Assembly: GCA_019058445.1 (NCBI GenBank)
Contig: JAHPZA010000009.1
Location: forward strand, 722,355-786,354
Direction of reading: 5' to 3'
DNA: 64,000 bases
DNA from: Promethearchaeota archaeon
GTDB lineage: Archaea; Asgardarchaeota; Lokiarchaeia; Sigyniarchaeales; SOKP01
Below the pieces are notes generated by a model that had not been told where the DNA came from, did not search any database, and saw only the letters and a program-made list of their open reading frames with translations. Below, piece by piece: positions 9,712-60,569 of this stretch. The translations under genes and the position numbers were made by a program. The first letter of the stretch is position 1; every line of letters starts with the position of its first letter.

Positions 9712-9772
9712 ATTATAGATCTCACCATTTTAATATTATATTTTTAGCAGATTTTTAAAAAAAAATACTACC

Positions 9773-15587: not shown

Positions 15588-16127
15588 TTAAAACCAATCT
15601 GTAAATTCTTCAACAGATCTCCTTTTTCCCTGTTTAATGTTTTTATAGTTGTCTACTTCCTCATCGACAGCGCCAATTGCGATAATTCCCATCAGCTCAT
15701 AAACTTTATCACTTAGTTTAAAGATCTCGTTAATTTGTTCCTTTATATCTGAATCAATTCCTAGCCAAACTGCTCCTATTTCAGGTAAAACATGAACAGC
15801 CAGAAGAATATTTTCTACGAACGCCCCTATCGCCAATATATCACTGTCTCTCTTATCACTTTTTTTTAAGTCAAGAAATACAACTAAACAGCAGGACGCC
15901 GTTTCATAGATATCTGCATATTGAGGCATTACTTCGGCCAACATCATCTTCACTGTTGGGTGTATAACGATATTTACTCTATAGGGCTGATTTAGATTCT
16001 CATCTAAGGCAAAACCGCATTCTAATATCTCTTTAATTGCTTGTTGGGTTAATTTTTTAAATGAAAAGTTCCTTACACTTTTTCTACTCTTAATTAAATC
16101 CATAAGATTTGAAGTCCGGACTTCCAT
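15588..16127 (-). CDS. Nitroreductase-family flavoprotein
   Basis: SRKSVRNF ... NQPYRV ... GAVWLG. Tandem paralog of the next gene. Confidence 0.75.
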   Translation of the reverse strand: MEVRTSNLMDLIKSRKSVRNFSFKKLTQQAIKEILECGFALDENLNQPYRVNIVIHPTVKMMLAEVMPQYADIYETASCCLVVFLDLKKSDKRDSDILAIGAFVENILLAVHVLPEIGAVWLGIDSDIKEQINEIFKLSDKVYELMGIIAIGAVDEEVDNYKNIKQGKRRSVEEFTDWF

Positions 16128-16228
16128 ATTTAAAAAATAAGGATTCTTATGAATATAAAGTTTTTTACTTAAAGCGTATATTAAAGTCTAGTAGTGATTA
16201 TTAAAAAAAATAAATAAATTATGTAAGA

Positions 16229-16768
16229 TCAATACCAATCAACAAAATCTTCAACGGGTCTTCTTTCTCTTGTTTTTTCATTCCTTTGTACTACCGCTTC
16301 ATCAACTTCACCAATGGCAATTACACCCATTAATTCAAATTTCTCCGGATCTAACTTAAATAATTCATTAACGCTCTCCTTTTTGTTTAATATTTCTCCT
16401 AACCAGACAGCACCTAAACCTGGTTGTGCATGTACTCCTAAAAGCAAATTTTGCATGAATGCACCAATACCTTGAATATCTTTTACCCGATCATAGGATT
16501 TTTCCTTATCTAGAAATACAACTAGATTCACATAAGCGCTTTCGATGATGTTGCCGTATTTAGTATGTTCTTTTAACATACCTTTCACTTTTTCATGCAT
16601 AACTACATTGACCCTCCAGGGTTGATTATTCCTGCCTGAAGGAGCCCAGCGGCCGAATTCTAAGATTTCAAGGATAGTATCTTTATATATTTTCGAAAAT
16701 ATAAAATTTCTAACGCTTTTGCGACTTCTAACAAATTCTAGATATTTTTTTGATTCGCTTTCTTCCAT
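16229..16768 (-). CDS. Nitroreductase-family flavoprotein
   Basis: SRKSVRNF ... APSGRNNQPWRV ... GAVWLGE. Confidence 0.8.
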   Translation of the reverse strand: MEESESKKYLEFVRSRKSVRNFIFSKIYKDTILEILEFGRWAPSGRNNQPWRVNVVMHEKVKGMLKEHTKYGNIIESAYVNLVVFLDKEKSYDRVKDIQGIGAFMQNLLLGVHAQPGLGAVWLGEILNKKESVNELFKLDPEKFELMGVIAIGEVDEAVVQRNEKTRERRPVEDFVDWY

Positions 16769-44244: not shown

Positions 44245-45636
44245 ATGAAAATTGCCATATTAAATGGAAGTCCGAAAGGAGATCAAAGTGTTACAATGCA
44301 ATACATATTGTATGTAAAGAAGAAAATTCCGGAGCATGAGTATAACATTTTAAATGTAGCTCAACAAATAAAAAGGCTTGAAAAAAACGATGCCGCTTTT
44401 CAAGAAATTTTGGATGCGATCAGAGATTCAGATGCGGTTATTTGGGGTTTTCCTTTATATGTCATGGTTATTGCTTCCCAGTTTAAACGGTTTATTGAAC
44501 TTATTTTTGAGAAAAAGGCTACGAGCTATTTTAATGATAAATATACCATGTTGTTATTGACTTCAATTCACTTTTTTGACCATACCGCTGAAAATTATAT
44601 GCATGGAATTTGCGATGATCTGGGAATGAAATTTGTGGATTTTTATTCCGCAGATAGTTGGGATCTATTATATCCTAAAAGAAGAGCGATGTGGCTAAAA
44701 ATAGCTGAAAATTTCTTTGAAGCAGTCGAAAAGAAGATTCCAACTACGAGACAATTCCCTCCGATCCACTTAAGGGAATTTGAATATAATCCAGAAAAAT
44801 TCAAAAATGGAGAAAAAAAAGTAGATCCTGAAGATAAAAAAATTCTTATTATTACTGATTCTATAGATGATAATAAAAATCTGGGAAAAATGATCAAAAA
44901 GTTCCAATCTTGTTTTTCCAAGAACATAGAAATAATCAATATTCATGATGTAGATATTCTGGGAGGATGCATAGGCTGCGGTAAATGTGGATATAATCAT
45001 GAATGCTCATATACGGGAAAAGATGGATATCAAGAATTTTGGGAAGAAAGTGTAATGAAGGCTGACGTATTGATATTTGCAGGAACTATAAAGGATAGGT
45101 TCTTATCTTCAAGATGGAAAATGGTGTATGACAGAGCTTTTTATAACACCCACACTCCAACTTTAATTGGAAAACAGTTAGGGTATATAGTTTCCGGGCC
45201 TTTTAGTCAAATCCCTAATCTAAAAGAAATGATGCAAGCACATGTAGAAATCCAAATGTCAAATCTCGTAGGGTTTGTAACAGATGAGTATGGAGATTCC
45301 GCTGAAATAGATGCCCTACTATATGATCTTGCTCGACGATTAATTAAATTTGCGCAAATGAATCTCATAAAACCTCAGACTTTTCTTGGAGTGGGAGGTT
45401 TTAAAATATTTAGAGATGATGTATATGGACGTAATCGTTTCGTATTCTTAGCGGACCATAAATGGTATGAAGAACATGGGGTGTATGATTCCTTTCCTCA
45501 AAATGATCAGAGAGCGATTGAAATGAATAAGAAACTGATTCCTTTAATACAAATTGACAAAATTAGAAATAAAATGGACTTTAGAATAGAATTTTTAAAA
45601 CCTTTTAAGAAAGTAATCACTGATCCAAATAAATAA
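44245..45636 (+). CDS. Two-module flavoprotein: NAD(P)H-FMN-reductase-like module plus iron-sulfur-flavoprotein (Isf)-like module
   Basis: The N-terminus is MKIAILNGSPKG ... VIWGFPLY. The second module begins KILIITDS and carries the compact motif CIGCGKCGYNHEC (CX2CX2CX5C). Confidence 0.6.
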   Translation: MKIAILNGSPKGDQSVTMQYILYVKKKIPEHEYNILNVAQQIKRLEKNDAAFQEILDAIRDSDAVIWGFPLYVMVIASQFKRFIELIFEKKATSYFNDKYTMLLLTSIHFFDHTAENYMHGICDDLGMKFVDFYSADSWDLLYPKRRAMWLKIAENFFEAVEKKIPTTRQFPPIHLREFEYNPEKFKNGEKKVDPEDKKILIITDSIDDNKNLGKMIKKFQSCFSKNIEIINIHDVDILGGCIGCGKCGYNHECSYTGKDGYQEFWEESVMKADVLIFAGTIKDRFLSSRWKMVYDRAFYNTHTPTLIGKQLGYIVSGPFSQIPNLKEMMQAHVEIQMSNLVGFVTDEYGDSAEIDALLYDLARRLIKFAQMNLIKPQTFLGVGGFKIFRDDVYGRNRFVFLADHKWYEEHGVYDSFPQNDQRAIEMNKKLIPLIQIDKIRNKMDFRIEFLKPFKKVITDPNK

Positions 45637-45665
45637 AATTAAAAAAACCAAATTGAGATATAAAA

Positions 45666-47063
45666 ATGAAAATTGCTGTATTAAATGGAAGTCCTAAAGG
45701 TAACCTAAGCGTTACTATGCAATACATTCTCTATATTCAAAAAAAATTCCCCCAACATGAACTTAAAATCCTAAATGTTGCACAACAAATCAAAACACTT
45801 GAAAAAGATCAAGAAAAGTTTCAGGAGGTTATTGAAGTAATTAAGGCTTCTGAAGGGGTAATATGGGGTTTTCCTTTATATGTTACGTTAGTCTCATCTC
45901 AGTACAAACACTTCATTGAACTTATTAGTGAAAAAGGCGTAGAAGATGCCTTTAAAGATAAATATGCCGCTTTAGTATGCACGTCCATTCATTTCTATGA
46001 TCATACTGCTGTGAACTATATCAATGCAATCAGTGATGATTTAGAAATGAGATTTGTAGGATTCTATTCCGCAGAAATGATGGATTTAATGGAAGAGGAG
46101 CAAAGAGAAAACCTAGTTTCATTTGCTAAAGATTTTTTTTATACAATTGAAAACAAGTTATCAACAACAAGGAGATATCCCCCTCTAAAATTACGAGAGT
46201 ATAAATACACACCAAGTGGACTTATAAACGATAAAGAAAAAATTCATGCGAATGGGAAGAAAATTTCAATTATTACTGACTTGACAGATGAAGAATCTAA
46301 CTTAGCAAAAATGATTAAATCATTTCAGGATTGTTTTTCAAGTAATGTTGAAATAATTAATGTGAATGATGTAGATATTAAGGGAGGTTGTTTAGGATGT
46401 TGCCAGTGTGCGTATGATAACCAATGCATATATAGGGATAAAGATGGATTTACAGAATTCTATAATACAAAAGTTAAAACGCCGGATATAATTATCCGGG
46501 CTTTAACGATAAAAGACAGATATTTTTCTTCTAGATGGAAATTAGTGCTTGATAGGAGCTTTTTTAACGGTCATGTTCCGACGATAATCGGGAGACAAAT
46601 CGGCTATATTATTTCAGGTCCGCTGGGACAAATACCTAACCTGAGACAAATCATTTACGGGATGACTGAACTTGCAGATAACAATCTGGTTGACATTGTT
46701 ACGGATGAATATGGAGAATCACGGGACATTGATCAAATGCTTTATAATTTAGCAGAAAGGGTAGTAAGACTCTCAAATTCTAATTATATTAGTCCGGGGA
46801 CTTATCTTGCTGTAGGGGGGAGAAAAATATTCCGAGATGCCATTTATGGTAGAATGCGCTTTGTTTTTCAAGCTGATCATCGGTATTATGAAGAACATGG
46901 ATTATATGATTTCCCACAAGACGATGAACAAGCCAAGAAGATGAATGATATGTTTATCCCCTTGATTAATAAAGATGAGAAATTTAGAAAAATGTTTTAT
47001 TCGAGAACCACAACGGAAATGGTAAAACCATTGCAGGAGATAGTGAAAAATCCTAAAAAATAG
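45666..47063 (+). CDS. Two-module flavoprotein, tandem paralog of 44245-45636
   Basis: MKIAVLNGSPKG ... VIWGFPLY ... CLGCCQCAYDNQC. Collinear with the neighbour. Confidence 0.6.
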   Translation: MKIAVLNGSPKGNLSVTMQYILYIQKKFPQHELKILNVAQQIKTLEKDQEKFQEVIEVIKASEGVIWGFPLYVTLVSSQYKHFIELISEKGVEDAFKDKYAALVCTSIHFYDHTAVNYINAISDDLEMRFVGFYSAEMMDLMEEEQRENLVSFAKDFFYTIENKLSTTRRYPPLKLREYKYTPSGLINDKEKIHANGKKISIITDLTDEESNLAKMIKSFQDCFSSNVEIINVNDVDIKGGCLGCCQCAYDNQCIYRDKDGFTEFYNTKVKTPDIIIRALTIKDRYFSSRWKLVLDRSFFNGHVPTIIGRQIGYIISGPLGQIPNLRQIIYGMTELADNNLVDIVTDEYGESRDIDQMLYNLAERVVRLSNSNYISPGTYLAVGGRKIFRDAIYGRMRFVFQADHRYYEEHGLYDFPQDDEQAKKMNDMFIPLINKDEKFRKMFYSRTTTEMVKPLQEIVKNPKK

Positions 47064-47958: not shown

Positions 47959-48567
47959 ATGACGGAAAAACCGATTGAAAAGAGTCAAATAGAAGGAATT
48001 ATAGAAGGTAATAAAGTTATTATTTCTGATAAAGAAGGAATTGAAGATTTCTATAAAACTTCATATATTGGAACACTTGAAAAAGATACGAATAATCAGG
48101 ATATATTGATTTTAGAGCCAATGGAAGTCCTTCTTTTATGCGAGAGGCGAAGAATATTATTATGGGAAAACAATGATAAAAATAAAGCTCAATATGATTT
48201 CGAAAAACTCTTAGAATATTTCACTCAAAATGATGATAGATTATGGCATAAATATATCATCTATATGGACTTACGAAAAAGAGGTTACATCGTTAGAACT
48301 GGTTATGGTGATGGCATAGAATTCCGCGTGTTCAAAAGAGGTGCTAACTTTGAAGAAGATTCTGCCAAATTTTTAATATATCCCGTGTATGAGGGGAGTC
48401 CTATAGAATTGAAAGATTTAGATAGGATCTCCAGAGTTGCGATGAGTTCTCGCAAAGATCTTATAGTAGCTACTGTTGATAGGTTAAGTAAACCAATATA
48501 TTACAGTGTGAAAAAATTCCAAATATTAAACATTGAAGGTAGTGAAAAAAAACAAAATGCAAGATAA
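47959..48567 (+). CDS. endA: tRNA-splicing endonuclease family protein, apparently lacking catalytic Tyr and His
   Basis: YIIYMDLRKRGYIVRTGYGDGIEFRVFKRGANFEEDSAKFLIYPV ... RVAMSSRKDLIVATVD aligns by eye with M. jannaschii EndA [44 protein letters not shown] ... RVAHSVRKKLLIAIVD. Confidence 0.7.
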   Translation: MTEKPIEKSQIEGIIEGNKVIISDKEGIEDFYKTSYIGTLEKDTNNQDILILEPMEVLLLCERRRILLWENNDKNKAQYDFEKLLEYFTQNDDRLWHKYIIYMDLRKRGYIVRTGYGDGIEFRVFKRGANFEEDSAKFLIYPVYEGSPIELKDLDRISRVAMSSRKDLIVATVDRLSKPIYYSVKKFQILNIEGSEKKQNAR

Positions 48568-50263: not shown

Positions 50264-51550
50264 TTAAGCTTTAATTGAAGTAAGATCTACTCCTTTTGTT
50301 TCTTTAATGTATTTATAGACTAAAGGTACATTTATGAATAATGGTATTGAAAAGAGTATAAATGCCATCCCTAAGCCTAAAAATAGCACAACAATACCTC
50401 CCAAAAGTAATCCACTGGTAATACCAAGAGCAGAGATAAAACCTCTTAGACCACCAGCAGTACCTCTTTTATCAGTTGGGACAATTTCAACTGTTACAAT
50501 TCGTATACCTCCTATCAATCCCCACCATGCACCGTAGACCAAACCAAAGAAGATCCAAGTAATAATACTCGTTCCCATTCCAATATTGACTAGCATAACA
50601 ACAATAATTACAAATATTGGAAGTAATATTGACCAGAAATATAATACAAACTTTCTTCCTATTTTGTCCCCGGTTATTCCAGAAACGATATATGCGGATA
50701 GAATCATAGTTGCAGTAATTAATACGGCTGTATTTACTTGGCTTTCACTCACTCCTCCTTGGGTCCTCAAATATTCCTGCCCAACTATACAGAACAGATA
50801 ACTTAGCCCATTTGTAAGAGCTAAGAATAAAACTACAATATATTCAGTTCTTCGGGAGGATTTAAATAATGCTTTGACATTTTCCGTAAATGATGGAGTT
50901 TCCACTTTTTCTCCAGATTCTTTATGTTCCTTATAGGTCGAAGTTTCCTTGAGAGTGAATAAGACGAGTATTGTACATAAAAATCCTAAGATTACTGCAA
51001 ACCACGATAAGCCCCTCCATGCGCCAACAGGGGAAGTCTCTGTAATAAAGACACCCCGAAGTATAGATGATACAAAGACTCCAATAATCCCTCCAGACAC
51101 AATAATATTAGCCCAAATGGCTCTTTTATCGTCTGGACATTCCTCATTAATGTATATCATCCAGATATCGGAACTAAAGAACAGATAGAGCAGAAACAAA
51201 AAGACAATATACATGATGAAAGTTGTAGATAAGATCATCATGAGAGAGGCAAACGCCATTCCAAAACAAGTAAAAGCAAGTATCTTTTTTCTTCCAATTC
51301 TATCTGCCATATATTGATTTACAAAGACAAAATACATTCCTATTGTTGCAATACCAGCTCCTATGGAATAAATTGCTTGTGCGGTATTCCGATTCATGTC
51401 TGCTAAGAATTCATCTATTATATTCGAGGGGATCACCAACGGATAAGCTGTTGTGTAAGCATCGAGTATTTCTATTAGAATTAAGACAAACACTAAATAC
51501 CGAAAATAGCCCTTTGACACTCTTAAAGAGCTACTAGAAGATTCGGTCAT
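50264..51550 (-). CDS. MFS transporter
   Basis: About 12 hydrophobic helices and the loop 2-3 motif ADRIGRKKIL. Confidence 0.75.
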   Translation of the reverse strand: MTESSSSSLRVSKGYFRYLVFVLILIEILDAYTTAYPLVIPSNIIDEFLADMNRNTAQAIYSIGAGIATIGMYFVFVNQYMADRIGRKKILAFTCFGMAFASLMMILSTTFIMYIVFLFLLYLFFSSDIWMIYINEECPDDKRAIWANIIVSGGIIGVFVSSILRGVFITETSPVGAWRGLSWFAVILGFLCTILVLFTLKETSTYKEHKESGEKVETPSFTENVKALFKSSRRTEYIVVLFLALTNGLSYLFCIVGQEYLRTQGGVSESQVNTAVLITATMILSAYIVSGITGDKIGRKFVLYFWSILLPIFVIIVVMLVNIGMGTSIITWIFFGLVYGAWWGLIGGIRIVTVEIVPTDKRGTAGGLRGFISALGITSGLLLGGIVVLFLGLGMAFILFSIPLFINVPLVYKYIKETKGVDLTSIKA

Positions 51551-51674
51551 AAATATGAATCGATATTAATCTATATAAATATTTGCCGTTTCTGATTAAG
51601 TAAAAAAAGAATAAATAGACAACAATGGAAAAAATGAATTTTTAAAAAAAAAAAATAATTATAAGTAATTTGAC

Positions 51675-52901
51675 TTACCTTTCTTCTTGCACTGCTTCTA
51701 AAACCTTACCTTTAGTTTCATAGGGCTTTATTAATAGGGTAATCAAAGGGATAATCATAAAGATACCGCCCCATATGAAAAATCCACCCATAGTGGGATA
51801 TGCTATTAATAAAACAAACGCAACCAGGGGGCCAATTACATATGCGGCACGAACTGCTGTGTAAGAGACGCCTACAGCGGTAGACCTGATTTTAGTTGGA
51901 AATATTTCTGCAAAATACACCATAATCCAAGCTAGAATAATCGGCATAAATAAGTAAATCATAAAGAAGAAGATTGTTGTACCACCGGTAATTCCAAGAC
52001 CTATGAATCCAATTACGGAACCAGTACATCCAATAATCATCGTACCATTTCTCCCCACCTTCTCCATCAAAATTCCAGATAAGATAGCACCAACCATCGT
52101 AAGTAATGCTGCAACTGTGAGTATGCTACGAAATTGAGGTTCTGACCAACCCAAAATGTTCATATAGTAATATGCACCCCAAGATCGAATAAGAATATAT
52201 GAAATTGTCCACATACTATATACAATGGTACACATTAAAACGTAAATCATATCCGTTCTTTTCATTTCTTTAAGTGCTTCTTTTAATTTCAGAAGTCTAG
52301 ATTCTCTTTTTGTGTGTTCAATCTCCCATCTCTGCGGTTCTTTCATGAAGTACCACATAACACAAAGTCCTAACATAAAGAAGAACCATATCCCATATGC
52401 CCAACGCCATCCTATACTTGTCGCTATAGGACCTGCTACAAATGCCCATATAGGTATTACACCTATAAGAAATGCGATGCTACCATATAGAGCTCTCTTC
52501 GCCGGGGGCGATTCCTCAGCTACAGGAATTTCCCAAATATTTGAAAGAGTTCCTAAGATCATAATTGAATACAGTATCATGAACCAATGGAAGTTACCTT
52601 CAGTTGTGAAAACAATTAAAAGAGCGGGAATACCTAATACTAACATTAGAAATAACATCCCTTTTCTCCTTCCATATGCATCTGCAACCCATGCTATAAT
52701 GAAAACTGCAAAAGTAATAATCCCGTAAATTCCTTGCCAGAACGCAAATTCTGCTGCTGTTATTCCATAATCTTGAAGAATAAAGGGTATGAGAGGGCCC
52801 TCAATTTGAGATAAGCTTTGATCAAGAAGTCCAATAAGTCCCATGAATATTACAAGGAAAGCAACATATCCACCTGACCTTTGTTCAAATTCTTCTGACA
52901 T
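51675..52901 (-). CDS. MFS transporter
   Basis: About 12 hydrophobic helices and the loop 2-3 motif DAYGRRKGML. Confidence 0.75.
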   Translation of the reverse strand: MSEEFEQRSGGYVAFLVIFMGLIGLLDQSLSQIEGPLIPFILQDYGITAAEFAFWQGIYGIITFAVFIIAWVADAYGRRKGMLFLMLVLGIPALLIVFTTEGNFHWFMILYSIMILGTLSNIWEIPVAEESPPAKRALYGSIAFLIGVIPIWAFVAGPIATSIGWRWAYGIWFFFMLGLCVMWYFMKEPQRWEIEHTKRESRLLKLKEALKEMKRTDMIYVLMCTIVYSMWTISYILIRSWGAYYYMNILGWSEPQFRSILTVAALLTMVGAILSGILMEKVGRNGTMIIGCTGSVIGFIGLGITGGTTIFFFMIYLFMPIILAWIMVYFAEIFPTKIRSTAVGVSYTAVRAAYVIGPLVAFVLLIAYPTMGGFFIWGGIFMIIPLITLLIKPYETKGKVLEAVQEER

Positions 52902-53074: not shown

Positions 53075-53875
53075 TTAATCTTTCTCTATTAAATCTTTTA
53101 CTTTTTCAATGATTGGAGGCAGAACATCTATAATATCATCAAAGAATCTTAAATCTGCTACTCTATCATAGGGTGTTTCTCCTCTATTTAAAATTATGAG
53201 TTTAGAACCCGATTGTTTCGCAATCCCCGGCATATTAGCCGCAGGGGTTACGACTAGAGAAGATCCAATTACAAAAAACACATCTGAAGCTTCAGACCTC
53301 CTCATAGATTCATATAATTCATCTTCTGGCAGAGGATCTCCGAAATTTACTATACTATTAATTATCCTCCCCCCGCACTGCGGACATTTTGGCTGACCAT
53401 CCTTAATTCCATCTGTTCTATATCCTTTTCCCCATTTATTCTTATCCCATCCTGCCTCTTCGAAAAGCATTTTTTTATTACATTGTAGGCATTTCATGTA
53501 GTACATGTTTATGGCATATGATGAATACTATCATATGTTTCCATGAAGTTCTGCCAGCTTTTCAAAGGGGATCCCTGATTTCGCATGAAGCCCGTCAACA
53601 TTCTGAGAAATTAAGTAGTCTAATTTCCCAATTTTCAATAATTCTACAATAGAAAAGTGAGCGATATTTGGTTTTACTTGGTCCCATGGAGGGGATTTTG
53701 GAGGAGGTAGCCCTGCATCCCTACGAGTCCACACTCCATCCGGTCCACGATAATCTGGTAGACCACTATGAGTGGAAACTCCTGCTCCAGTAAAGACTAC
53801 GAGTTGTTCAGATTCAGCAATCCATTTTGCTGCTAAATCGATTTTTTCTTTAAGTTCTGGTTCCATAATACACAA
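53075..53875 (-). pseudogene. Sir2-family NAD-dependent deacylase split into two in-frame ORFs (53531-53875 and 53075-53506) by a short insertion carrying TGA TAG
   Basis: The two halves are collinear with the intact paralog at 54008-54787. The break falls right after the catalytic ELHGN motif, and both ORFs are in the same frame. Confidence 0.6.
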
Positions 53876-54007
53876 ATAAAATTACTATTTATAAAAAGAT
53901 ATTGTCCAAAATCTAAATTTAAAATACTGAAAATAAAAAGTCATATTTTTCAGATTAAAGGAAAATTGTTGTTTTAGTATCTCTTTAAATAATTATGATA
54001 TCATAAT

Positions 54008-54787
54008 TTAGCGTGCATGATCCACCCCTACCATTTCTTTAACTTTTTCTACAATAGGAGGTAATACATCAGCAATAGAATCAGAGAACCTCAAATCAGC
54101 TATATTGTCATATGGGGTTTCTCCTTGGTTGAGAATGATTAATTTCGCACCACTTTGTCGAGCAAGACTAGGCATATGTGCTGCAGGATATACTACTAAA
54201 GATGACCCTATAACGAAAAATACATCACTTTCTGCTGATCTTCTCATTGATTCTTGTAAATCATCTTGGGGTAATGGGTCTCCAAAATTAACAATACTAT
54301 TAATTAACCTTCCTTCACAATCCGGACATCTTGGGTGTCGTTTTCGTGGTTTTGACATTCGAAATCCCATTCCATGTAGTCGTCTATTCCATCCTGCTTC
54401 TTCAAATGTTAACTTTTTTCCACAACCTAAACATCTCATAAGTTGCATATTTCCGTGTAATTCTGCAAGTTTTTCAAAGGGGATACCAGATTTTATGTGA
54501 AGCCCATCTATATTTTGGGATATTAAATAATCTAGCTTTCCCATTTCTAATAACTCTACTATTAAATAATGAGCGATGTTAGGGTTAACTTTATCCCATG
54601 GAGGAGACTTAGGAGGGGGTAGACCAGCATCTCTCCGAGTCCACAGCCCATCTGGGCCACGAAAGTCAGGTAATCCGCTATCTGTGGATATACCCGCCCC
54701 GGTAAATATTACTAGTCGTTCAGATTCGGCAATCCATTTTGCGGCTAAATCTATTTTTTCTTTAAGATCTGATTCCATAGTACACAA
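54008..54787 (-). CDS. Sir2-family NAD-dependent protein deacylase (sirtuin) with Cys4 zinc module
   Basis: FTGAGISTDSGLPDFRGPDGLW, QNIDGLH, ELHGN, CLGCGKK ... CPDCEG, GSSLVVYPAA. Confidence 0.85.
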   Translation of the reverse strand: MCTMESDLKEKIDLAAKWIAESERLVIFTGAGISTDSGLPDFRGPDGLWTRRDAGLPPPKSPPWDKVNPNIAHYLIVELLEMGKLDYLISQNIDGLHIKSGIPFEKLAELHGNMQLMRCLGCGKKLTFEEAGWNRRLHGMGFRMSKPRKRHPRCPDCEGRLINSIVNFGDPLPQDDLQESMRRSAESDVFFVIGSSLVVYPAAHMPSLARQSGAKLIILNQGETPYDNIADLRFSDSIADVLPPIVEKVKEMVGVDHAR

Positions 54788-54921
54788 ATAAAATAACTAT
54801 TAATAAAAACATATTGTAATTAGTTAAAAAGAACCTAATTAAAAAGATATCCTACATTAAAATCAAAAAAATTAATTAATACTTGTATAACTATATAATA
54901 AAATCACGGAAGGAATTTAAA

Positions 54922-56337
54922 ATGGCGAAAAAGAAATCAAAAAAGAAAATTTCAAAGGATTACGATTTCAAATTATTACTACAGTCAATGACAGTTGCGA
55001 AAATTAAGGAACTAATTGATTATTACAATGAGAAATTTGTCATCAATGGACCGAAAGATGAATTGTTAAAGCGATTTTCTACCCTTAAGAAAGCAGAACT
55101 GGTGGAATTTGTTGATGCTGCTTTTACTAAGGCGGAGAAGGATGAATTGTATGATGAATTTGCCCCTGAAATTATACAGACTATAATGACTGATGCTCTT
55201 TCTCTAGTTAGTGGCGAACATAAAGTTGAACAAATTCATAATGCGTCAGTTATTTCTGGAGGAAAAGGCTATAGAGTATGGTTTAAAGGAAAATATGGCT
55301 CGAATCGCGCATCTTTGCAAATTCTGGATGATTCCACTAAAAAGAGTTGTACTTGTAGATTAGGAAGCATAGATGGGATCTGTATGCATCAAATGGCTAT
55401 TTATCTGATGCTTTTGAGTAAAAAAGCAATCTCTTTAGATAACATGCCTTTCAATGTTGATGAAAAATGGTTTAAGTCTATACAGAAAAGGTTAGATCTG
55501 CTAGCAGCTCAAAGTTTATTTAAAGAAGACCCGACTATTATGCTTTCGAATGATTACTCCATCTATGTAAGCGGAGACCTTGTTACATTGCAATGGGGAG
55601 GGGATTATGCGGGGCGAACTACCAAGGATATCTCAGAGGAAGGGGGGGATGTAGATGAATGGGTTGCTCAAAAAGTGGTGGATATACTCCTTAAACCTAT
55701 TAAAGTAAAAACAAAGGAGGGGGCGCCAAATAAATTAGTTATTGATTCTTATGGAATTATTTCAAAAATAATGGGGAATCCTAAGTTAAAAGAGAAAATT
55801 TTGAAAAAGTTTGCTAAACTTGAAGATCCAGACCTACCCTCTGATGAACAATCTCTTGAAGAGTTTCTAAGAAGTGATTTAAAAGAGCAGACCGCAGATT
55901 TAAAGATTGACCCCCCATTTGAAGCTTATATGGGAAACGAGCCATTTCTATTCATAAGTTATACACATAAGGATAAATCAGAAGTATACCCCATAATAGA
56001 AAAATTATATAACAACGGAATTAATATTTGGTATGATGAAGGAATCCCTTTGAGTACTGATTGGTGTAATACCCTCGCAGAAAAAATTTTGGATTGTCAA
56101 GTCTTTTTATCATTTATTTCTCCCCATGTAAATGAATCGGATAACACTCAAGACGAAATACAATTTGCAATAAACGAAAAAAAAACCTTTCTTGCGGTGT
56201 ATTTAACCGAAGGGGATCTTTCTCCTGGATTAAAAATGAGAATGAGGAGAATTCAGGGTATTGAAAAATTCCAAATGGACCAAGAGAGATTTTATGACAA
56301 GCTATTGAACGAAATTAATAGAATAGTAAGCAACTAA
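54922..56337 (+). CDS. SAP/HeH-like plus SWIM zinc finger plus C-terminal TIR-like domain protein
   Basis: SWIM is CTCRLGSIDGICMHQMAIY. The TIR-like C-terminus is PFLFISYTHKDKSEVYPIIEKLYNNGINIWYDEGIP ... DWC ... VFLSFISP ... SDNTQDEIQFAI. I prefer ATG 54922 (GGAAGGA upstream); the track ORF starts at 54883. Confidence 0.6.
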   Translation: MAKKKSKKKISKDYDFKLLLQSMTVAKIKELIDYYNEKFVINGPKDELLKRFSTLKKAELVEFVDAAFTKAEKDELYDEFAPEIIQTIMTDALSLVSGEHKVEQIHNASVISGGKGYRVWFKGKYGSNRASLQILDDSTKKSCTCRLGSIDGICMHQMAIYLMLLSKKAISLDNMPFNVDEKWFKSIQKRLDLLAAQSLFKEDPTIMLSNDYSIYVSGDLVTLQWGGDYAGRTTKDISEEGGDVDEWVAQKVVDILLKPIKVKTKEGAPNKLVIDSYGIISKIMGNPKLKEKILKKFAKLEDPDLPSDEQSLEEFLRSDLKEQTADLKIDPPFEAYMGNEPFLFISYTHKDKSEVYPIIEKLYNNGINIWYDEGIPLSTDWCNTLAEKILDCQVFLSFISPHVNESDNTQDEIQFAINEKKTFLAVYLTEGDLSPGLKMRMRRIQGIEKFQMDQERFYDKLLNEINRIVSN

Positions 56338-56350
56338 TGAAATAAAAATA

Positions 56351-57085
56351 CTATATGTTTTTTTCTTTTTTTAATAACCTTATCAAATGGTTTAGATTAT
56401 CTTCCAGACCATATTCTTTTACTCTATAAAAAGGTTCCTCTATCAAACCAAGTTGTTTTGAATTATGCGCATCACTTCCAATACTCACGGGAATTTTATG
56501 ATTCCTTAACTTTTCGAAAAATACAAGATATTTAGGGGAATAAAATTGTGAATAACTTGAATTGAATTCAAAGAAGACATTACATTTTCTTAGAAATTGG
56601 ATCAGTCTATCTATTCCAGTATATATAAAATTTGAGGGATCAAAATGAGCTAATCCGAATAGTGGGAGATTATCAAACGAGATCTTTCTTTGCCAATAAT
56701 TAATTAGGTTATTGATAAAGGCAAGACCTTCAAAAGTCTCCAAGTATTCAAATAATATGATATCAAATTTGCACGGTTCTATAAGATTTTTTATAAATTC
56801 TTCAGAACTTCCAAGATCTACCTCTATTCCTTTATAGAGCAGGAGATTTTTCGAATTTGAGTTCAAATAACTTTGGCAGTTTGAGATTTCATCTAAATAG
56901 GTTTCAATTTTTTCAACAGAGTTTAAAGTGGGCATTAATCCAGACTTCCAAGAATTTGTGAAATGATCAGTAATCGCTAGATAATTTAATCCAATCTTGA
57001 CAGCTTTAGCAACAATTTTATTAATCGAATTTTTTCCGTCAGAATAAATTGAATGACAATGTAGATTAATTTTAGGAAAATTCAT
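56351..57085 (-). CDS. PHP-domain metal-dependent phosphoesterase
   Basis: INLHCHSIYSDGK at the N-terminus, ITDH, and GSDAHN near the C-terminus. Confidence 0.7.
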   Translation of the reverse strand: MNFPKINLHCHSIYSDGKNSINKIVAKAVKIGLNYLAITDHFTNSWKSGLMPTLNSVEKIETYLDEISNCQSYLNSNSKNLLLYKGIEVDLGSSEEFIKNLIEPCKFDIILFEYLETFEGLAFINNLINYWQRKISFDNLPLFGLAHFDPSNFIYTGIDRLIQFLRKCNVFFEFNSSYSQFYSPKYLVFFEKLRNHKIPVSIGSDAHNSKQLGLIEEPFYRVKEYGLEDNLNHLIRLLKKEKNI

Positions 57086-59042: not shown

Positions 59043-60569
59043 TTAAGATTTTTCAAGGTGAAAAAAACCTGAAATAAGTGTTAAAGAAGCAGCAATGATC
59101 ATAAGGATAAAAATTGTTGGATTTTCAATGTCTCCCGCATTCAACAAGTTTAAAATGAACATTAATCCAATAATGATAAAGAAAAAACCAGCCGCAATTA
59201 GAATCCCGCCAAATAATTTAGATGCTCTATAGATAAAAGACAAAAATTCTAACCTATTAATCCTACTCTCTTTATCTCTAATTTCAGATTCAGTCTTTTC
59301 TAATTCAGCTTTTAACTTCTGGAAAATTGCCCGTGAATCAGTAATACTAGTTTCAATTACCTCTTTAGTTTTCACCAGTTTATCATATTCCGGTTGTAAA
59401 TGGTCTATTTTCTCAGTTAACGCAACTAAACGTTCTTCCCTCTCATTATATTCCCTCGTTGATTCATCAATTGCATTTTTTATGTCAGTTAATCTTTTTT
59501 CACTTACTTCAATCAAATCTTCTTTGCTCTGAATTTGTTCGTTCAGAGATTCTAACGTATCAGTTACCTCTTGTATTCTAGATTCTATACCAATCATTTG
59601 CTGTTGTTTGTCAGTCAATTGGACCTTATATTTCTCTAAAAGTTCTATATAGGTATCTTTTTGTTTTTCCATTTCAGGGAAGCCCTCATTATATTGCTCT
59701 TGTAATTCCTGAATTTCCTTTATTCTGGATTCTTTTTTTTCTACTTGTTCATTTAAAGTCTTAAGCTCATCCTCTTTTGCTAGAATTAAATTATCTGTAT
59801 GCTGATATTCAATTTTGTTTTTCTCTATTGATACTTTTAACGTATCGTTTTCAGTTCTAAGACTTTTTAATTTTTTTTCCAGCGCTTCAGTTTCTTCTCT
59901 CTGTTTTTCGAGTTTATTTTCTCGTTCCTCAATATCTTTATTGGTTTTAGATATTTTAGACCTTAAATCTTCTTGGGTTGCTACTTTTTCTTTAATCCCA
60001 TCAGTGAGCACAATTAAATCTACTTGTCTGTTCTCATAGGTTTTAACTAATTGTTCATTATTTTTTAGAAGCTCTTTATATTCCTCTTCTAAAGTTTCCT
60101 TACTTTCTTTTGTTATTTGGGCTTGTTCTTCTAATGTTTTAGTTTCTTCGACCTTACGATTGTAATCTTCCTCAAGTTTAGCTATCTTGTCTTCTAAAGC
60201 GGTTAAATATTCCTTTTTATCTGTAATTTTTTTTGAAATAGATTCAAATTGAGAATTTGCCTCTTCGATTTCTTTCCCTATTCTTTCAATAATCATTCGA
60301 TCGATTTCTTCTTCTTCGATATCTTCTTTTTTCTCCGCTTCTTTTTTAACTTCCTCAATTGTAGTTTCAAAAGTCCGCAACTTTTTGTCTATCATATCCC
60401 TAGAGTCTTTGGCTTTTGATAATAACTCTTTGTCTACCTTTTCACTTTCTTTATCTATCTTACTATTTTTTTCTTTCTCCGTTTTACTATTCTTCTCTTC
60501 TTGGTCGCCAGAAGCCATTTTATCGCTCTTATGAGTCATAATTTTATTATAAAATTGAGTTACATACAA
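59043..60569 (-). CDS. Long Glu/Lys-rich coiled-coil protein with C-terminal membrane anchor
   Basis: About 430 aa of heptad-like E/K/L-rich sequence, followed by two hydrophobic helices (FGGILIAAGFFFIIIGLMFIL, IFILMIIAASLTLISGFF). Confidence 0.6.
   Translation of the reverse strand: MYVTQFYNKIMTHKSDKMASGDQEEKNSKTEKEKNSKIDKESEKVDKELLSKAKDSRDMIDKKLRTFETTIEEVKKEAEKKEDIEEEEIDRMIIERIGKEIEEANSQFESISKKITDKKEYLTALEDKIAKLEEDYNRKVEETKTLEEQAQITKESKETLEEEYKELLKNNEQLVKTYENRQVDLIVLTDGIKEKVATQEDLRSKISKTNKDIEERENKLEKQREETEALEKKLKSLRTENDTLKVSIEKNKIEYQHTDNLILAKEDELKTLNEQVEKKESRIKEIQELQEQYNEGFPEMEKQKDTYIELLEKYKVQLTDKQQQMIGIESRIQEVTDTLESLNEQIQSKEDLIEVSEKRLTDIKNAIDESTREYNEREERLVALTEKIDHLQPEYDKLVKTKEVIETSITDSRAIFQKLKAELEKTESEIRDKESRINRLEFLSFIYRASKLFGGILIAAGFFFIIIGLMFILNLLNAGDIENPTIFILMIIAASLTLISGFFHLEKS

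What the first reader, a model, noticed from the sequence alone, without database searches (positions are those of the whole stretch)
53075..57085. NAD-centred locus: duplicated sirtuins divergent from a SAP-SWIM-TIR protein, followed by a PHP phosphoesterase
The 484-aa protein combines three parts: a Lys-rich HeH/SAP-like N-terminus, a SWIM zinc finger (CTCRLGSIDGICMH), and a C-terminal TIR-like domain (FISYTHKDK ... NIWYDEG ... FISP ... SDNTQDEIQFAI, with a candidate catalytic Glu). Prokaryotic TIR domains are NAD-cleaving or signal-generating modules in antiviral systems, and SIR2 domains are NAD-depleting effectors in several of those systems, for example Thoeris. Here the TIR gene shares a divergent promoter region with a tandemly duplicated sirtuin. 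The duplication includes about 40 nt of upstream sequence: compare 53876-53915 with 54788-54825. However, these sirtuins look like canonical zinc-ribbon deacylases rather than ThsA-like effectors, so the link is speculative. I do not know of a described SAP-SWIM-TIR architecture.
Basis: partly seen in the sequence, partly recalled or inferred. Interest (0 to 1): 0.65.

Follow-up and report, generated by a model that had tools for sequence, protein, structure and literature searches.

The report
Asgard SWIM-TIR protein and split sirtuin
In a Lokiarchaeial (Asgard) genome, a conserved and undescribed TIR (NAD-cleaving type) protein with a DNA-binding-type front end sits beside ordinary SIRT6-like sirtuins to which it is not functionally tied, and one sirtuin gene carries a tiny conserved hairpin insert that looks like a tRNA-type intron inside a protein-coding gene.

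Summary
The genes exist as described, with corrections. The TIR ORF is really 471 aa (start 54922). One of the two sirtuins is not an intact ORF.

The proposed NAD-centred, Thoeris-like link is not supported:
- The sirtuins are canonical, highly conserved SIRT6/Sir2-Af2-like deacylases.
- A sirtuin lies next to the TIR gene only in the window's closest relatives. 20 other species-level genomes place the gene beside other housekeeping genes.
- A sister lineage keeps PHP-sirA-sirB but has deleted the TIR gene, leaving a 5' relic.

The TIR protein belongs to a Lokiarchaeia-specific family with one copy per genome and dN/dS of about 0.1. Its parts are a Lys-rich tail, a HeH/Rho_N-like motif, an invariant CxCx8CxH (SWIM-type) motif, an unknown middle domain and a TIR domain with an invariant catalytic-position Glu. 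The front module also exists without TIR. I infer a nucleic-acid-tethered TIR NADase activated by clustering.

Unexpectedly, the canonical sirtuin (sirB) is interrupted just after its catalytic His by a 30-nt insert with bulge-helix-bulge geometry. Removing it restores the ortholog sequence exactly. A 29-nt version sits at the same site in a sirtuin only 77% identical. Seven exon-1 alleles stop at that point. This is probably an mRNA BHB intron.

The parts
54922..56337 (+). Gene for the 471-aa HeH-SWIM-X-TIR protein. The longest ORF starts at 54883, but orthologs start at 54922.
   Evidence: 45 full-length ortholog clusters at 47-84% identity, all Lokiarchaeia-type MAGs. dN/dS is 0.075-0.11.
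54922..55122 (+). Lys-rich tail (MAKKKSKKK) and HeH/Rho_N-like helix-extended-helix, residues 1-67.
   Evidence: Rho_N hits in 6/18 family members and HeH in 2/18. Remote homologs of the module hit Rho_N at up to 4.4e-12. AF2 predicts helices at 25-41 and 57-67.
55219..55419 (+). SWIM-type zinc-finger region: four strands plus a helix. C143, C145, C154 and H156 lie at 55348-55389.
   Evidence: CxCx8CxH is invariant in 26 orthologs and 9 TIR-less paralogs. Pfam SWIM hits 12/18 members, best 8.6e-4, but only E=0.23 for the window protein. Coordinates checked.
55429..55926 (+). Middle alpha/beta domain of unknown fold, residues 170-335.
   Evidence: Confident AF2 model (pLDDT 83), but no significant match in PDB or BFVD. 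Conserved in the TIR-less paralogs.
55939..56334 (+). TIR domain, residues 340-471. The catalytic-position Glu E412 is at 56155-56157.
   Evidence: Pfam TIR_2 3.4e-17. Foldseek matches SARM1, SPARTA and RPS4 TIR domains. E412 is invariant and aligned to the motif Glu of Cat1 and AbTIR-like TIRs.
54788..54921 (.). Divergent intergenic region between sirA and the TIR gene. The duplicated sirtuin promoter-proximal segment lies at about 54788-54827.
   Evidence: The homologous spacer plus a relic of the TIR 5' end survives in L086-L088.
54008..54778 (-). sirA: intact 256-aa sirtuin, the more divergent paralog.
   Evidence: SIR2 1.2e-33. Best PDB match is SIRT6 at 1.6e-46. It deviates at 6 of 128 columns that are at least 95% conserved in the family.
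53539..53866 (-). sirB exon 1 (111 aa when read into the insert). It ends just after the catalytic His (ELHGN).
   Evidence: Its product P0306 clusters with three other 111-aa alleles that all end in ...ELHGNI*.
53509..53538 (-). 30-nt insert ACATATGATAGTATTCATCATATGCCATAA, a candidate BHB (HBh') mini-intron. It has a 4-bp helix AUGG/CCAU flanked by AAA bulges and an inner 8-bp helix. It carries TGA TAG in frame.
   Evidence: The insert is absent from four related sirtuin genes. The minimum-free-energy fold shows the motif. A 29-nt version sits at the same site in L093.
53075..53508 (-). sirB exon 2: zinc ribbon and the C-terminal half of the Rossmann fold.
   Evidence: The spliced product is 253 aa, colinear with intact orthologs (94% identical to P0054), with 0 deviations at 128 conserved columns.
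56351..57085 (-). PHP-family phosphoesterase. It is a syntenic neighbour with no shown link to the TIR gene.
   Evidence: Pfam PHP 1.5e-10. It stays adjacent to sirA in L086-L088, where the TIR gene is deleted.
47959..48564 (+). tRNA-splicing endonuclease (EndA) catalytic-type subunit, the enzyme that would cut a BHB motif.
   Evidence: Pfam tRNA_int_endo 2.9e-18 plus the N-terminal domain. Asgard EndA is reported as the (alpha-beta)2 type with the L1 loop, which gives broad specificity (PMC5829648).

Best explanation
The region is a block of neighbouring but independent genes in a Lokiarchaeial chromosome, not an NAD-based defence cassette.

1. The 471-aa protein belongs to a Lokiarchaeia-specific family that is vertically inherited and present once per genome.
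   - Shown: it has a Lys-rich tail with a HeH/Rho_N-like motif, an invariant SWIM-type CxCx8CxH motif, an unknown middle domain, and a TIR domain that keeps the catalytic-position Glu. The N-terminal module is an evolutionary unit of its own, because TIR-less paralogs exist and its HeH-SWIM core is also fused to LRR or WD40 proteins.
   - Inferred mechanism: the front end tethers the protein to nucleic acid or chromatin, or to a partner. Binding of its ligand clusters the TIR domains. As in SARM1, SPARTA, Cat1 and AbTIR, clustering forms composite active sites that cleave NAD+, giving either depletion or an ADPR-type signal.
   - The trigger is unknown. My estimate is about 45% invader nucleic acid (a one-protein immune sensor-effector) and about 35% an endogenous cue such as DNA damage or a chromatin or NAD state (SARM1-like).

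2. sirA and sirB are canonical SIRT6/Sir2-Af2-like deacylases produced by a tandem duplication that included the promoter.

3. sirB, the canonical copy, is interrupted right after the catalytic His codon by a 30-nt element.
   - Shown: it has bulge-helix-bulge geometry.
   - Inferred: the tRNA-splicing endonuclease cuts it in the two AAA bulges and RtcB ligates the exons, restoring ...HGN|MYYMKC....
For: TIR protein:
- Domain evidence.
- Family: 45 full-length clusters. One copy in each of 23 MAGs, 22 of them full-length or nearly so and L032 holding only the C-terminal 203 residues.
- Selection: dN/dS 0.075-0.11, like PINA (0.05), MFS (0.08) and the sirtuins.
- Context is clade-specific and housekeeping: Elp3 | TIR | PyrK-PyrD-Nop5-fibrillarin in 8-10 genomes, Rad50 -> TIR -> Alba in 3, and metabolic genes in Ca. 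Lokiarchaeum ossiferum.
- There is no defence island and no strong PADLOC hit.
- The gene is deleted in L086-L088, leaving a 5' relic (MAKKKSKNLHSTTDAKIKELID*).
- TIR-less paralogs and LRR/WD40 fusions of the front module exist.

Sirtuins.

sirB insert:
- It is absent from 4 related sirtuin genes.
- The minimum-free-energy fold gives a 4-bp helix, a 3-nt bulge and an 8-bp helix.
- Excision gives a 253-aa product with 0 deviations at 128 conserved columns.
- L093 carries a 29-nt version at the same codon in a sirtuin that is 77% aa and 73% nt identical (dS 1.8, dN/dS 0.097). The stems, the H helix and the bulges are identical and only the loop differs. 29 nt shifts the frame while 30 nt carries stops, so neither version is read through.
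- Seven distinct exon-1 alleles from NCBI, JGI, ENA and Logan data end at ...HGNI* or ...HGII*.
- An EndA gene lies in the window.
- Literature: Asgard EndA has broad specificity (PMC5829648). Cleavage falls between the 2nd and 3rd bulge nucleotides, and relaxed BHB motifs occur in cbf5 pre-mRNA (PMC2738675; PMC6379350).
Against: - No biochemical or RNA data exist for any step.
- SWIM and HeH are below Pfam thresholds in this protein, and the N-terminal 336 residues have no significant structural match.
- NADase activity is inferred only from the fold and one conserved Glu. The Trp of the usual SxWCxxE motif is missing (SDNTQDE).
- The stable, single-copy, housekeeping-like pattern is atypical for an immune gene, while the clean loss in a sister lineage is atypical for an essential one.
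- The insert lacks the outer exon-exon helix (h), so the 3' bulge is not closed in the canonical way.
- In L093 the minimum-free-energy fold prefers an alternative pairing.
- The two DNA copies show no compensatory changes, so there is no covariation support.
- A 6-nt direct repeat (AAACAT) flanks the insert. This also fits insertion with target duplication, or take-off and landing codons for ribosome hopping.
Confidence: 0.6

Rival explanations
1. One reading: a Thoeris-like NAD-centred defence cassette. The TIR protein senses infection and signals to, or cooperates with, the neighbouring SIR2 proteins, which deplete NAD+.
For: TIR and SIR2 genes are divergently arranged with a 134-nt spacer. 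The arrangement recurs in the nearest relatives L010, L089 and L011. There are weak ThsB-type hits: PF08937 at 0.0093 and PADLOC ThsB at 0.0016.
Against: The sirtuins are canonical 250-aa SIRT6/Sir2-Af2/CobB-like enzymes with no SLOG or other sensor domain and no ThsA hit. They belong to a 75-94% identical Asgard-wide family. 20 other species-level genomes have the TIR ortholog with no SIR2 within the sequence held, up to 10 kb on each side. L086-L088 keep both sirtuins but have deleted the TIR gene.
Confidence: 0.04
2. The TIR protein is not an immune protein. It is an endogenous enzyme tethered to chromatin or to DNA-repair factors, acting in NAD+ or nucleotide signalling (SARM1-like), with the SWIM/HeH module placing it on DNA.
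For: It is single-copy and vertically inherited, with strong purifying selection over its whole length. Its neighbours in different clades have a chromatin or DNA flavour: Rad50 directly upstream with Alba downstream, Elp3, and sirtuins. There is no defence island.
Against: The neighbourhoods differ by clade and could be chance. The gene is cleanly lost in one lineage. The nearest TIR relatives are multi-copy Asgard TIR paralogs with variable N-termini, some in tandem arrays, which is a conflict-system pattern. The HeH-SWIM core is also fused to LRR and WD40 proteins.
Confidence: 0.3
3. The TIR domain is a non-enzymatic scaffold used for homotypic assembly only.
For: Many animal TIR domains are scaffolds. 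The motif Trp before the Glu is absent.
Against: The Glu at the catalytic position, the WYDEG motif and the FxSYxHxDK motif are invariant. The closest solved relatives by sequence are the NADases Cat1 and AbTIR-type TIRs.
Confidence: 0.08
4. The sirB insert is rescued at translation, or not at all. Either (a) ribosomes hop from the AAC codon before the insert to the AAC codon after it, as in T4 gene 60 and the mitochondrial 'byp' elements, or (b) the two halves are made as separate polypeptides that assemble into a split sirtuin.
For: AAC(AT) is matched on both sides, a stop codon follows one codon after the first AAC, and a hairpin lies in the gap. Both halves are intact ORFs, and the second begins at native Met codons.
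Against: Neither model needs the exact geometry of a 4-bp exon-intron helix with two 3-nt bulges, which is conserved in both DNA copies. Allele P0290 ends in ...HGII*, which implies a changed first 'take-off' codon. That change is neutral for BHB cleavage after bulge nucleotide 2, but it would break codon matching and replace the conserved Asn (inference from the protein only). No Shine-Dalgarno-like sequence precedes the second ORF. Hopping has not been described in archaea (my knowledge).
Confidence: 0.2
5. The sirB insert is simply an inactivating lesion (pseudogene) or an assembly artefact.
For: It introduces two stop codons. sirB has an intact paralog next door that could cover for it. 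The nearest database alleles (P0054 at 94%, P0057 at 90%) lack the insert.
Against: The interruption at the same site is seen in at least 7 distinct alleles from four data sources and in two clades that are only 77% identical. dN/dS across them is 0.097, with no other defect. The insert is about 93% conserved, while third codon positions of the flanking exons are 51% identical.
Confidence: 0.05

Closest known systems
Prokaryotic sensor-TIR NADase effectors (SPARTA TIR-APAZ, Cat1, TIR-SAVED, AbTIR) and animal SARM1
   Same: The TIR_2-type domain has a flavodoxin-like fold (TM about 0.7 to SARM1 TIR) and keeps the catalytic-position Glu and a WYDE-type motif. A sensor or tether region is fused N-terminally. 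Like SARM1, it is a conserved single-copy gene.
   Different: The N-terminal HeH, SWIM-type and unknown-domain module is not found in any of them and has no significant structural match. There is no partner gene (Argonaute, CRISPR, CD-NTase). The motif reads SDNTQDE rather than SxWCxxE. Activity is untested.
Thoeris (ThsB TIR + ThsA SIR2-SLOG)
   Same: A TIR gene lies next to SIR2-family genes, and both families use NAD+.
   Different: The sirtuins are canonical deacylases without SLOG. The adjacency is confined to one small clade and is broken by deletion in a sister lineage. ThsB matches are below threshold.
BHB introns in archaeal pre-mRNA (cbf5 of Desulfurococcales and Sulfolobales)
   Same: It is a short intervening sequence in a protein-coding gene with a relaxed bulge-helix-bulge motif. 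It sits at the codon of a catalytic residue. Its distribution among close relatives is patchy (gain and loss). The host has a hetero-oligomeric, broad-specificity EndA.
   Different: The host gene is a SIRT6-like sirtuin and the phylum is Asgard. The element is only 29-30 nt and almost identical in two diverged clades, which suggests recent spread or strong sequence constraint. No cDNA evidence exists yet.
Human SIRT6 and Archaeoglobus Sir2-Af2 (canonical sirtuins)
   Same: The full-length catalytic core matches (1.6e-46 and 1.5e-45). The GAGxS motif, the catalytic His and the four-Cys zinc ribbon are present.
   Different: The enzymes are about 250 aa with no eukaryotic N- or C-terminal extensions. 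They are tandemly duplicated here, and one copy is interrupted.
Programmed translational bypassing (T4 gene 60; mitochondrial byp elements)
   Same: It is a short hairpin-containing coding gap with matched codons at both edges and a stop codon just after the first.
   Different: The extra 4-bp helix and symmetric 3-nt bulges are not part of bypass signals. Bypassing is not known in archaea.
SWIM zinc-finger proteins (MuDR/FAR1 transposase-derived, SWI2/SNF2-associated, Shu2/SWS1, ZSWIM)
   Same: The CxCxnCxH signature follows a small beta-sheet and leads into a helix. Members of this family typically act in DNA- or protein-binding contexts.
   Different: The Pfam match is below threshold in this protein. 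The fusion to HeH and TIR is not described. The fold similarity is only hinted at (BFVD prob 0.85).

Membership tests
TIR domain (Pfam TIR_2, enzymatic TIRs) | Profile match above the curated threshold | tested here: met
   63.5 bits against a cut-off of 28, E=3.4e-17.
TIR domain (Pfam TIR_2, enzymatic TIRs) | Flavodoxin-like TIR fold | tested here: met
   AF2 pLDDT 82.8. Foldseek prob 1.0 and TM 0.69-0.73 to SARM1 TIR, with further matches to SPARTA and RPS4 TIRs.
TIR domain (Pfam TIR_2, enzymatic TIRs) | Catalytic Glu at the start of helix alpha-C | tested here: met
   E412 is invariant in 26 orthologs. It aligns to the Glu of SDWCWDE in Cat1 and NWTEYE in 7uxr.
TIR domain (Pfam TIR_2, enzymatic TIRs) | NAD+ cleavage or cyclisation activity | not testable with these tools
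   Needs an enzyme assay.
Thoeris defence system | ThsB-type TIR protein | tested here: inconclusive
   PF08937 E=0.0093, below its cut-off. PADLOC ThsB 0.0016.
Thoeris defence system | ThsA effector (SIR2 or TM domain plus a SLOG or Macro sensor) | tested here: not met
   The sirtuins are 250-aa canonical cores with no extra domain and no ThsA hit. The best matches are CobB, SIRT6 and Sir2-Af2.
Thoeris defence system | Conserved thsA-thsB gene neighbourhood | tested here: not met
   A SIR2 gene lies near the TIR ortholog in only 3 of 23 species-level genomes, counting the window's own. The TIR gene is deleted beside intact sirtuins in L086-L088.
SWIM zinc finger (PF04434) | CxCxnCxH signature | tested here: met
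   C143, C145, C154 and H156 are invariant in 26 orthologs and 9 TIR-less paralogs.
SWIM zinc finger (PF04434) | Profile match above the curated threshold | tested here: not met
   The window protein scores 11.5 bits against a cut-off of 19.6 (E=0.23). 12 of 18 family members match at E<1, best 8.6e-4.
SWIM zinc finger (PF04434) | SWIM fold and zinc binding | tested here: inconclusive
   AF2 shows four strands followed by a helix that starts at the C-x-H. There is no PDB match. A BFVD SWIM-type protein matches at prob 0.85, TM 0.30.
HeH / SAP / Rho_N helix-extended-helix | Profile match | tested here: inconclusive
   Rho_N in 6/18 members (best 0.0079) and HeH in 2/18. Significant Rho_N hits occur in homologs of the same module (4.4e-12 and 1.6e-7). 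No SAP hit in the family itself.
Canonical sirtuin deacylases | SIR2 profile, GAGxS, catalytic His, four-Cys zinc ribbon | tested here: met
   SIR2 1.2e-33. The sequences show GAGIST/GAGVST, ELHG and CxxC...CxxC.
Archaeal BHB introns | Two 3-nt bulges separated by a 4-bp helix at the exon-intron borders | tested here: met
   AUGG/CCAU is flanked by AAA and AAA. It is present in the minimum-free-energy fold of the window RNA and identical in L093. Definition from PMC6379350.
Archaeal BHB introns | Flanking helices h (outer) and h' (inner) | tested here: inconclusive
   h' is present (8-9 bp). The outer exon-exon helix is absent, which makes this the relaxed HBh' type also seen in pre-mRNA and non-canonical tRNA introns.
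Archaeal BHB introns | Cleavage between bulge nucleotides 2 and 3 restores a functional sequence | tested here: met
   Removing 30 nt (window) or 29 nt (L093) gives ...HGNMY[YF]MKC..., colinear with intron-less orthologs, with 0 deviations at 128 conserved columns.
Archaeal BHB introns | Host encodes a splicing endonuclease able to cut relaxed motifs | tested here: met
   An EndA subunit gene lies at 47959-48564. Asgard EndA is reported as (alpha-beta)2 with the L1 loop (PMC5829648). The beta subunit and RtcB were not looked for, because only 64 kb is available.
Archaeal BHB introns | Spliced RNA and excised (circular) intron observed | not testable with these tools
   Needs RNA data.

The most novel reading that the evidence does not exclude
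The 29-30-nt element in the SIRT6-like sirtuin genes of Lokiarchaeia is a genuine, possibly mobile, bulge-helix-bulge mini-intron in an mRNA. The tRNA-splicing endonuclease and RtcB would remove it. Full-length sirtuin would then be made only after this unconventional splicing, a potential on/off switch placed right after the catalytic His codon. It would be mechanistically analogous to HAC1/XBP1 mRNA splicing in eukaryotes. As far as my searches show, it would be the first protein-coding BHB intron in the archaeal lineage closest to eukaryotes.
Probability: 0.55. Interest if true: 0.8.

Novelty: new variant of a known kind. Interest (0 to 1): 0.62.

Why it matters
1. The result removes a tempting but wrong inference that a TIR gene next to a SIR2 gene means a Thoeris-like system. 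It shows how to test such a claim by synteny across relatives.

2. It defines a conserved Asgard TIR family with a new HeH-SWIM front end and an intact catalytic position.
   - A stably inherited, SARM1-like single-copy version in the closest archaeal relatives of eukaryotes bears on how TIR signalling entered eukaryotes.
   - A homolog exists in the cultured Ca. Lokiarchaeum ossiferum, so the family is experimentally reachable.

3. The interrupted sirtuin, if spliced, adds a second gene family and a new phylum to the very short list of archaeal mRNA introns. It also suggests that an NAD-dependent chromatin-type deacylase could be regulated through tRNA-type splicing.

Tried and rejected
- PADLOC on the locus and on all 53 window proteins gave only generic hits: ThiF to E1-E2, an ArsR HTH to Csa3, and cysteine desulfurase to DndA/SspA. 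The window is not a defence island.
- Foldseek of the N-terminal 336 residues against PDB and BFVD found nothing significant.
- Rfam and ARAGORN found no RNA genes in the window, so no tRNA introns were available for comparison.
- An exact search for the 23-nt hairpin core found only the known copies: none in JGI metagenomes or IMG/VR, and one in the window itself, at up to 3 mismatches. A gapped hairpin pattern run over all fetched loci matched only L093.
- My own scan for 'BHB motif plus ORF merging' over 1.2 Mb gave 1713 hits. It is therefore unspecific and was dropped. A relaxed BHB-like motif alone is common by chance. The case rests on the register matching the homology-defined insert borders and on conservation.
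- I asked whether the 321-aa gene next to the TIR ortholog in L001 is a TIR-less paralog. It is not.
- The contexts of TIR-less paralogs (L090, L091) were too short to be informative.
- A fold-back duplication as the origin of the hairpin was considered and rejected. The right arm is the reverse complement of the left arm minus the AAA, so a simple fold-back copy does not produce it (read from the sequence).

Full report
OBSERVATION

The window has low G+C (about 31%) and comes from a Lokiarchaeia-type Asgard archaeon. The evidence is an archaeal PINA ATPase and EndA, and the fact that every close homolog comes from Promethearchaeota, Lokiarchaeota or Hermodarchaeota MAGs.

Three corrections are needed.
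- All orthologs start at the ORF's Met14, so the TIR gene is 54922-56337 and 471 aa.
- sirA most likely starts at the ATG at 54778, giving 256 aa.
- The second sirtuin is two same-frame ORFs separated by a 30-nt insert that carries TGA TAG.

The duplication does include promoter-proximal DNA. 27 of the 30 nt upstream are identical, against 72% identity in the coding part.

THE TIR PROTEIN

A database search returned 45 full-length clusters of about 470 aa at 47-84% identity, all from Lokiarchaeia-type MAGs. A scan of species-representative genomes found one copy in each of 23 MAGs. 22 of these are full-length or nearly so, and one (L032) holds only the C-terminal 203 residues.

The alignment of 26 orthologs shows conservation over the whole length. 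Invariant positions include:
- C143, C145, C154 and H156, forming CxCx8CxH;
- the TIR motifs FxSYxHxDK and WYDEG;
- S406 and E412.

E412 aligns with the Glu of the S-x-W-C-x-x-E motif in the solved NADases Cat1 and an AbTIR-like TIR. The AlphaFold model is confident (pLDDT 82.8). Its C-terminal domain matches SARM1, SPARTA and plant TIR domains with TM of about 0.7.

The N-terminal 336 residues, modelled separately (pLDDT 83.3), have no significant match in PDB or BFVD. A weak match to a viral SWIM-type protein has prob 0.85.

Pfam SWIM and Rho_N/HeH are below threshold in the window protein but recur across the family: SWIM in 12/18 members, Rho_N in 6/18 and HeH in 2/18.

An exhaustive profile search with the N-terminal region gave two results.
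- TIR-less paralogs of 308-342 aa cover the whole module and keep the Cys/His motif.
- More distant proteins fuse only the HeH-helix-SWIM core to LRR, WD40 or multiple HeH/SAP domains. Their Rho_N hits reach 4.4e-12.

The front module is an evolutionary unit to which TIR was added.

IS IT LINKED TO THE SIRTUINS?

No. The evidence falls into four groups.

Genomic context. Among 23 species-level genomes with a full-length or nearly full-length ortholog (the window's own genome plus 22 MAG loci), a SIR2 gene lies within 10 kb only in the window and its two nearest relatives, L010 (84%) and L011 (70%). One metagenome contig, L089, shows the same arrangement. Elsewhere the gene sits in clade-specific housekeeping contexts:
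- between Elp3 and PyrK-PyrD-Nop5-fibrillarin in 8-10 genomes;
- directly after Rad50, with Alba downstream, in three genomes;
- next to metabolic genes in others, including the cultured Ca. Lokiarchaeum ossiferum.

Gene loss. Contigs L086-L088 are as close to the window as L010 is (PINA 88%, sirA 87%). They carry AA-permease, PHP, sirA, sirB, MFS and PINA with no TIR gene. Their PHP-sirA spacer still holds the TIR promoter region and a decayed 5' end (MAKKKSKNLHSTTDAKIKELID*). The gene was therefore ancestral at this locus and was deleted, while both sirtuins stayed.

Nature of the sirtuins. They are canonical: CobB-type by NCBIfam, best solved relatives human SIRT6 and Sir2-Af2, and part of a family that is 75-94% identical across Asgard archaea. 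They have no SLOG domain and no ThsA hit.

Defence content. No defence system is detectable in the whole window, whose genes are metabolic and housekeeping.

SELECTION

dN/dS for the TIR gene is 0.075-0.11. This matches PINA (0.05), MFS (0.08), the sirtuins (0.07-0.12) and PHP (0.13-0.15). The gene is under strong purifying selection, is vertically inherited within clades, and yet is dispensable in at least one lineage.

MECHANISM (INFERRED)

By analogy with solved TIR NADases, which need TIR-TIR assembly to form the active site (established knowledge for SARM1, plant TIRs, SPARTA, AbTIR and Cat1), I propose the following steps.
1. The Lys-rich tail and HeH motif tether the protein to nucleic acid.
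2. The SWIM and middle domains recognise a ligand or partner.
3. The resulting clustering switches on NAD+ cleavage that depends on E412.

Whether the trigger is foreign nucleic acid or an endogenous cue cannot be decided.
- The single-copy housekeeping-like pattern and the chromatin/DNA flavour of the neighbours (Rad50, Alba, Elp3, sirtuins) point to an endogenous cue.
- Three features point to an immune role. The nearest TIR relatives are multi-copy Asgard paralogs in tandem arrays. The front module is fused to LRR and WD40 proteins. The gene has been cleanly lost in one lineage.

THE INTERRUPTED SIRTUIN

Relative to sirA, to both L010 sirtuins and to the L011 sirtuin, sirB has exactly 30 extra nucleotides just after the codons for ELHGN, which include the catalytic His.

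As RNA the region reads ...CUUC AUGG AAA CAUAUGAU AGUAUUC AUCAUAUG CCAU AAA CAUGUAC.... It contains:
- a 4-bp helix formed by the last exon nucleotides and the 3' end of the insert;
- 3-nt bulges on opposite strands flanking that helix;
- an inner 8-bp helix.

The minimum-free-energy fold contains this structure. This is the topology of the archaeal bulge-helix-bulge splice motif, two 3-nt bulges separated by 4 bp, with cleavage between bulge nucleotides 2 and 3 (PMC6379350; PMC2738675). It lacks the outer helix, which makes it the relaxed HBh' type. That type is cut by hetero-oligomeric EndA, the type reported for Asgard archaea (PMC5829648). An EndA subunit gene lies 5 kb away.

Cutting in the bulges removes 53538-53509 and yields a 253-aa protein. 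That protein is 94% identical to the nearest intact database protein and has no deviation at 128 columns that are at least 95% conserved in 120 homologs. sirA has six deviations. sirB is therefore the canonical copy.

A degenerate pattern search of metagenomes for any 20-50-nt insert at this codon found L093. This is a different Asgard sirtuin in a different gene context: 77% aa and 73% nt identity, dS 1.8, third codon positions 51% identical, dN/dS 0.097. It carries a 29-nt insert at the same site. The stems, the 4-bp helix and the bulges are identical, and only the loop differs.

An insert of 29 nt shifts the reading frame, while one of 30 nt carries stops. Neither can be read through, yet both exons remain under purifying selection.

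Cluster look-ups found five further exon-1 alleles that stop at the same place: P0307-P0309 in the window's clade and P0289 and P0290 in the L093 clade. They come from ENA, JGI and Logan data. P0290 ends in ...HGII*. This implies a change of the third nucleotide of the 5' bulge, which would be intronic if cleavage follows bulge nucleotide 2. That inference is made from the protein sequence only.

Intact alleles occur in the same 90% clusters, so the element is patchy among close relatives, as was described for the cbf5 intron.

A recent pseudogene or an assembly artefact is thus very unlikely. The remaining alternatives are ribosome hopping between the matched AAC codons and a two-piece sirtuin. 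Neither explains the conserved BHB register.

No RNA evidence is available, and two DNA copies give no covariation. I put spliced BHB intron at about 0.55-0.7.

COMPARISON AND NOVELTY

The TIR protein works like sensor-fused TIR NADases and resembles SARM1 in being a conserved single-copy gene. It is not Thoeris, because two defining features were tested and not met. The HeH-SWIM-X-TIR architecture has no description in the literature I could search and no structural precedent for its front end. It is a new variant of a known kind.

The sirtuin insert, if spliced, is a new member of the small class of archaeal pre-mRNA BHB introns, in a new gene and a new phylum.

VERDICT

The functional interpretation of an NAD-centred cassette is not supported. 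The architecture claim is supported. An unexpected and more interesting feature, a conserved intron-like element in the sirtuin gene, lies inside the flagged coordinates.

Noticed in passing
L086:1597-1810, also L087 and L088: The spacer between PHP and sirA holds a relic of the TIR gene: its promoter region and a decayed 5' end (MAKKKSKNLHSTTDAKIKELID*). About 1.3 kb of the gene has been deleted.
   Followed up: yes
L093:10898-11691 (contig SMTZ1_10003828): A second Asgard sirtuin gene is split at the same codon by a 29-nt version of the hairpin insert. Its neighbours (a TPR protein and an unknown 273-aa protein) differ from those in the window.
   Followed up: yes
L041, L050, L054, L056 (Asgard); L070 (Eubacteriales): Three or four TIR-domain genes lie in tandem, spaced about 2.5 kb apart. 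Their TIR domains are 40-49% identical to the window's, but their N-termini differ.
   Followed up: partly
P0225, P0248-P0251, P0259, P0271, P0221, P0238 (one search hits): The HeH-helix-SWIM core of the N-terminal module also occurs inside large LRR, WD40 or multi-HeH/SAP proteins of up to 1735 aa. Their taxonomy and context are unknown.
   Followed up: partly
P0177-P0200; loci L090, L091: Stand-alone paralogs of 308-342 aa keep the whole HeH-SWIM-middle module without TIR. The Cys/His motif is invariant in them.
   Followed up: partly
L092:10001-11224 (Ca. Lokiarchaeum ossiferum CP163304.1): A 407-aa divergent homolog (SWIM, middle domain and TIR, without the HeH part) exists in a cultured Asgard archaeon, in a metabolic gene context. 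It is a handle for experiments.
   Followed up: partly
L011:6515-9579: In the Hermodarchaeota-labelled relative, the TIR gene lies between two sirtuin genes rather than after both. This is a different local arrangement from the window.
   Followed up: no
L004/L012, L008, L013: In one sub-clade the TIR ortholog directly follows Rad50 on the same strand (in L004, the HerA / unannotated 331-aa gene / Mre11 / Rad50 block). An Alba gene lies a few genes downstream in L004/L012 and L008.
   Followed up: partly
window 54008-54778 and 53075-53866: The closest solved relative of these archaeal sirtuins is human SIRT6 (1.6e-46), slightly ahead of archaeal Sir2-Af2. JGI labels some family members 'sirtuin 6'.
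   Followed up: partly
window 44245-47060, 50264-52901, 8593-10888, 15591-16768: Several other genes also occur as adjacent pairs of almost equal length on the same strand: 463/465 aa, 428/408 aa (both MFS transporters), 373/371 aa and 179/179 aa. Tandem duplication may therefore be common in this genome. I did not compare the members of each pair with each other.
   Followed up: no
window 59043-60569 (-): A 508-aa protein is almost entirely coiled coil (weak SMC/Rad50-type hits) with a hydrophobic C-terminal anchor. Its function is unknown.
   Followed up: no
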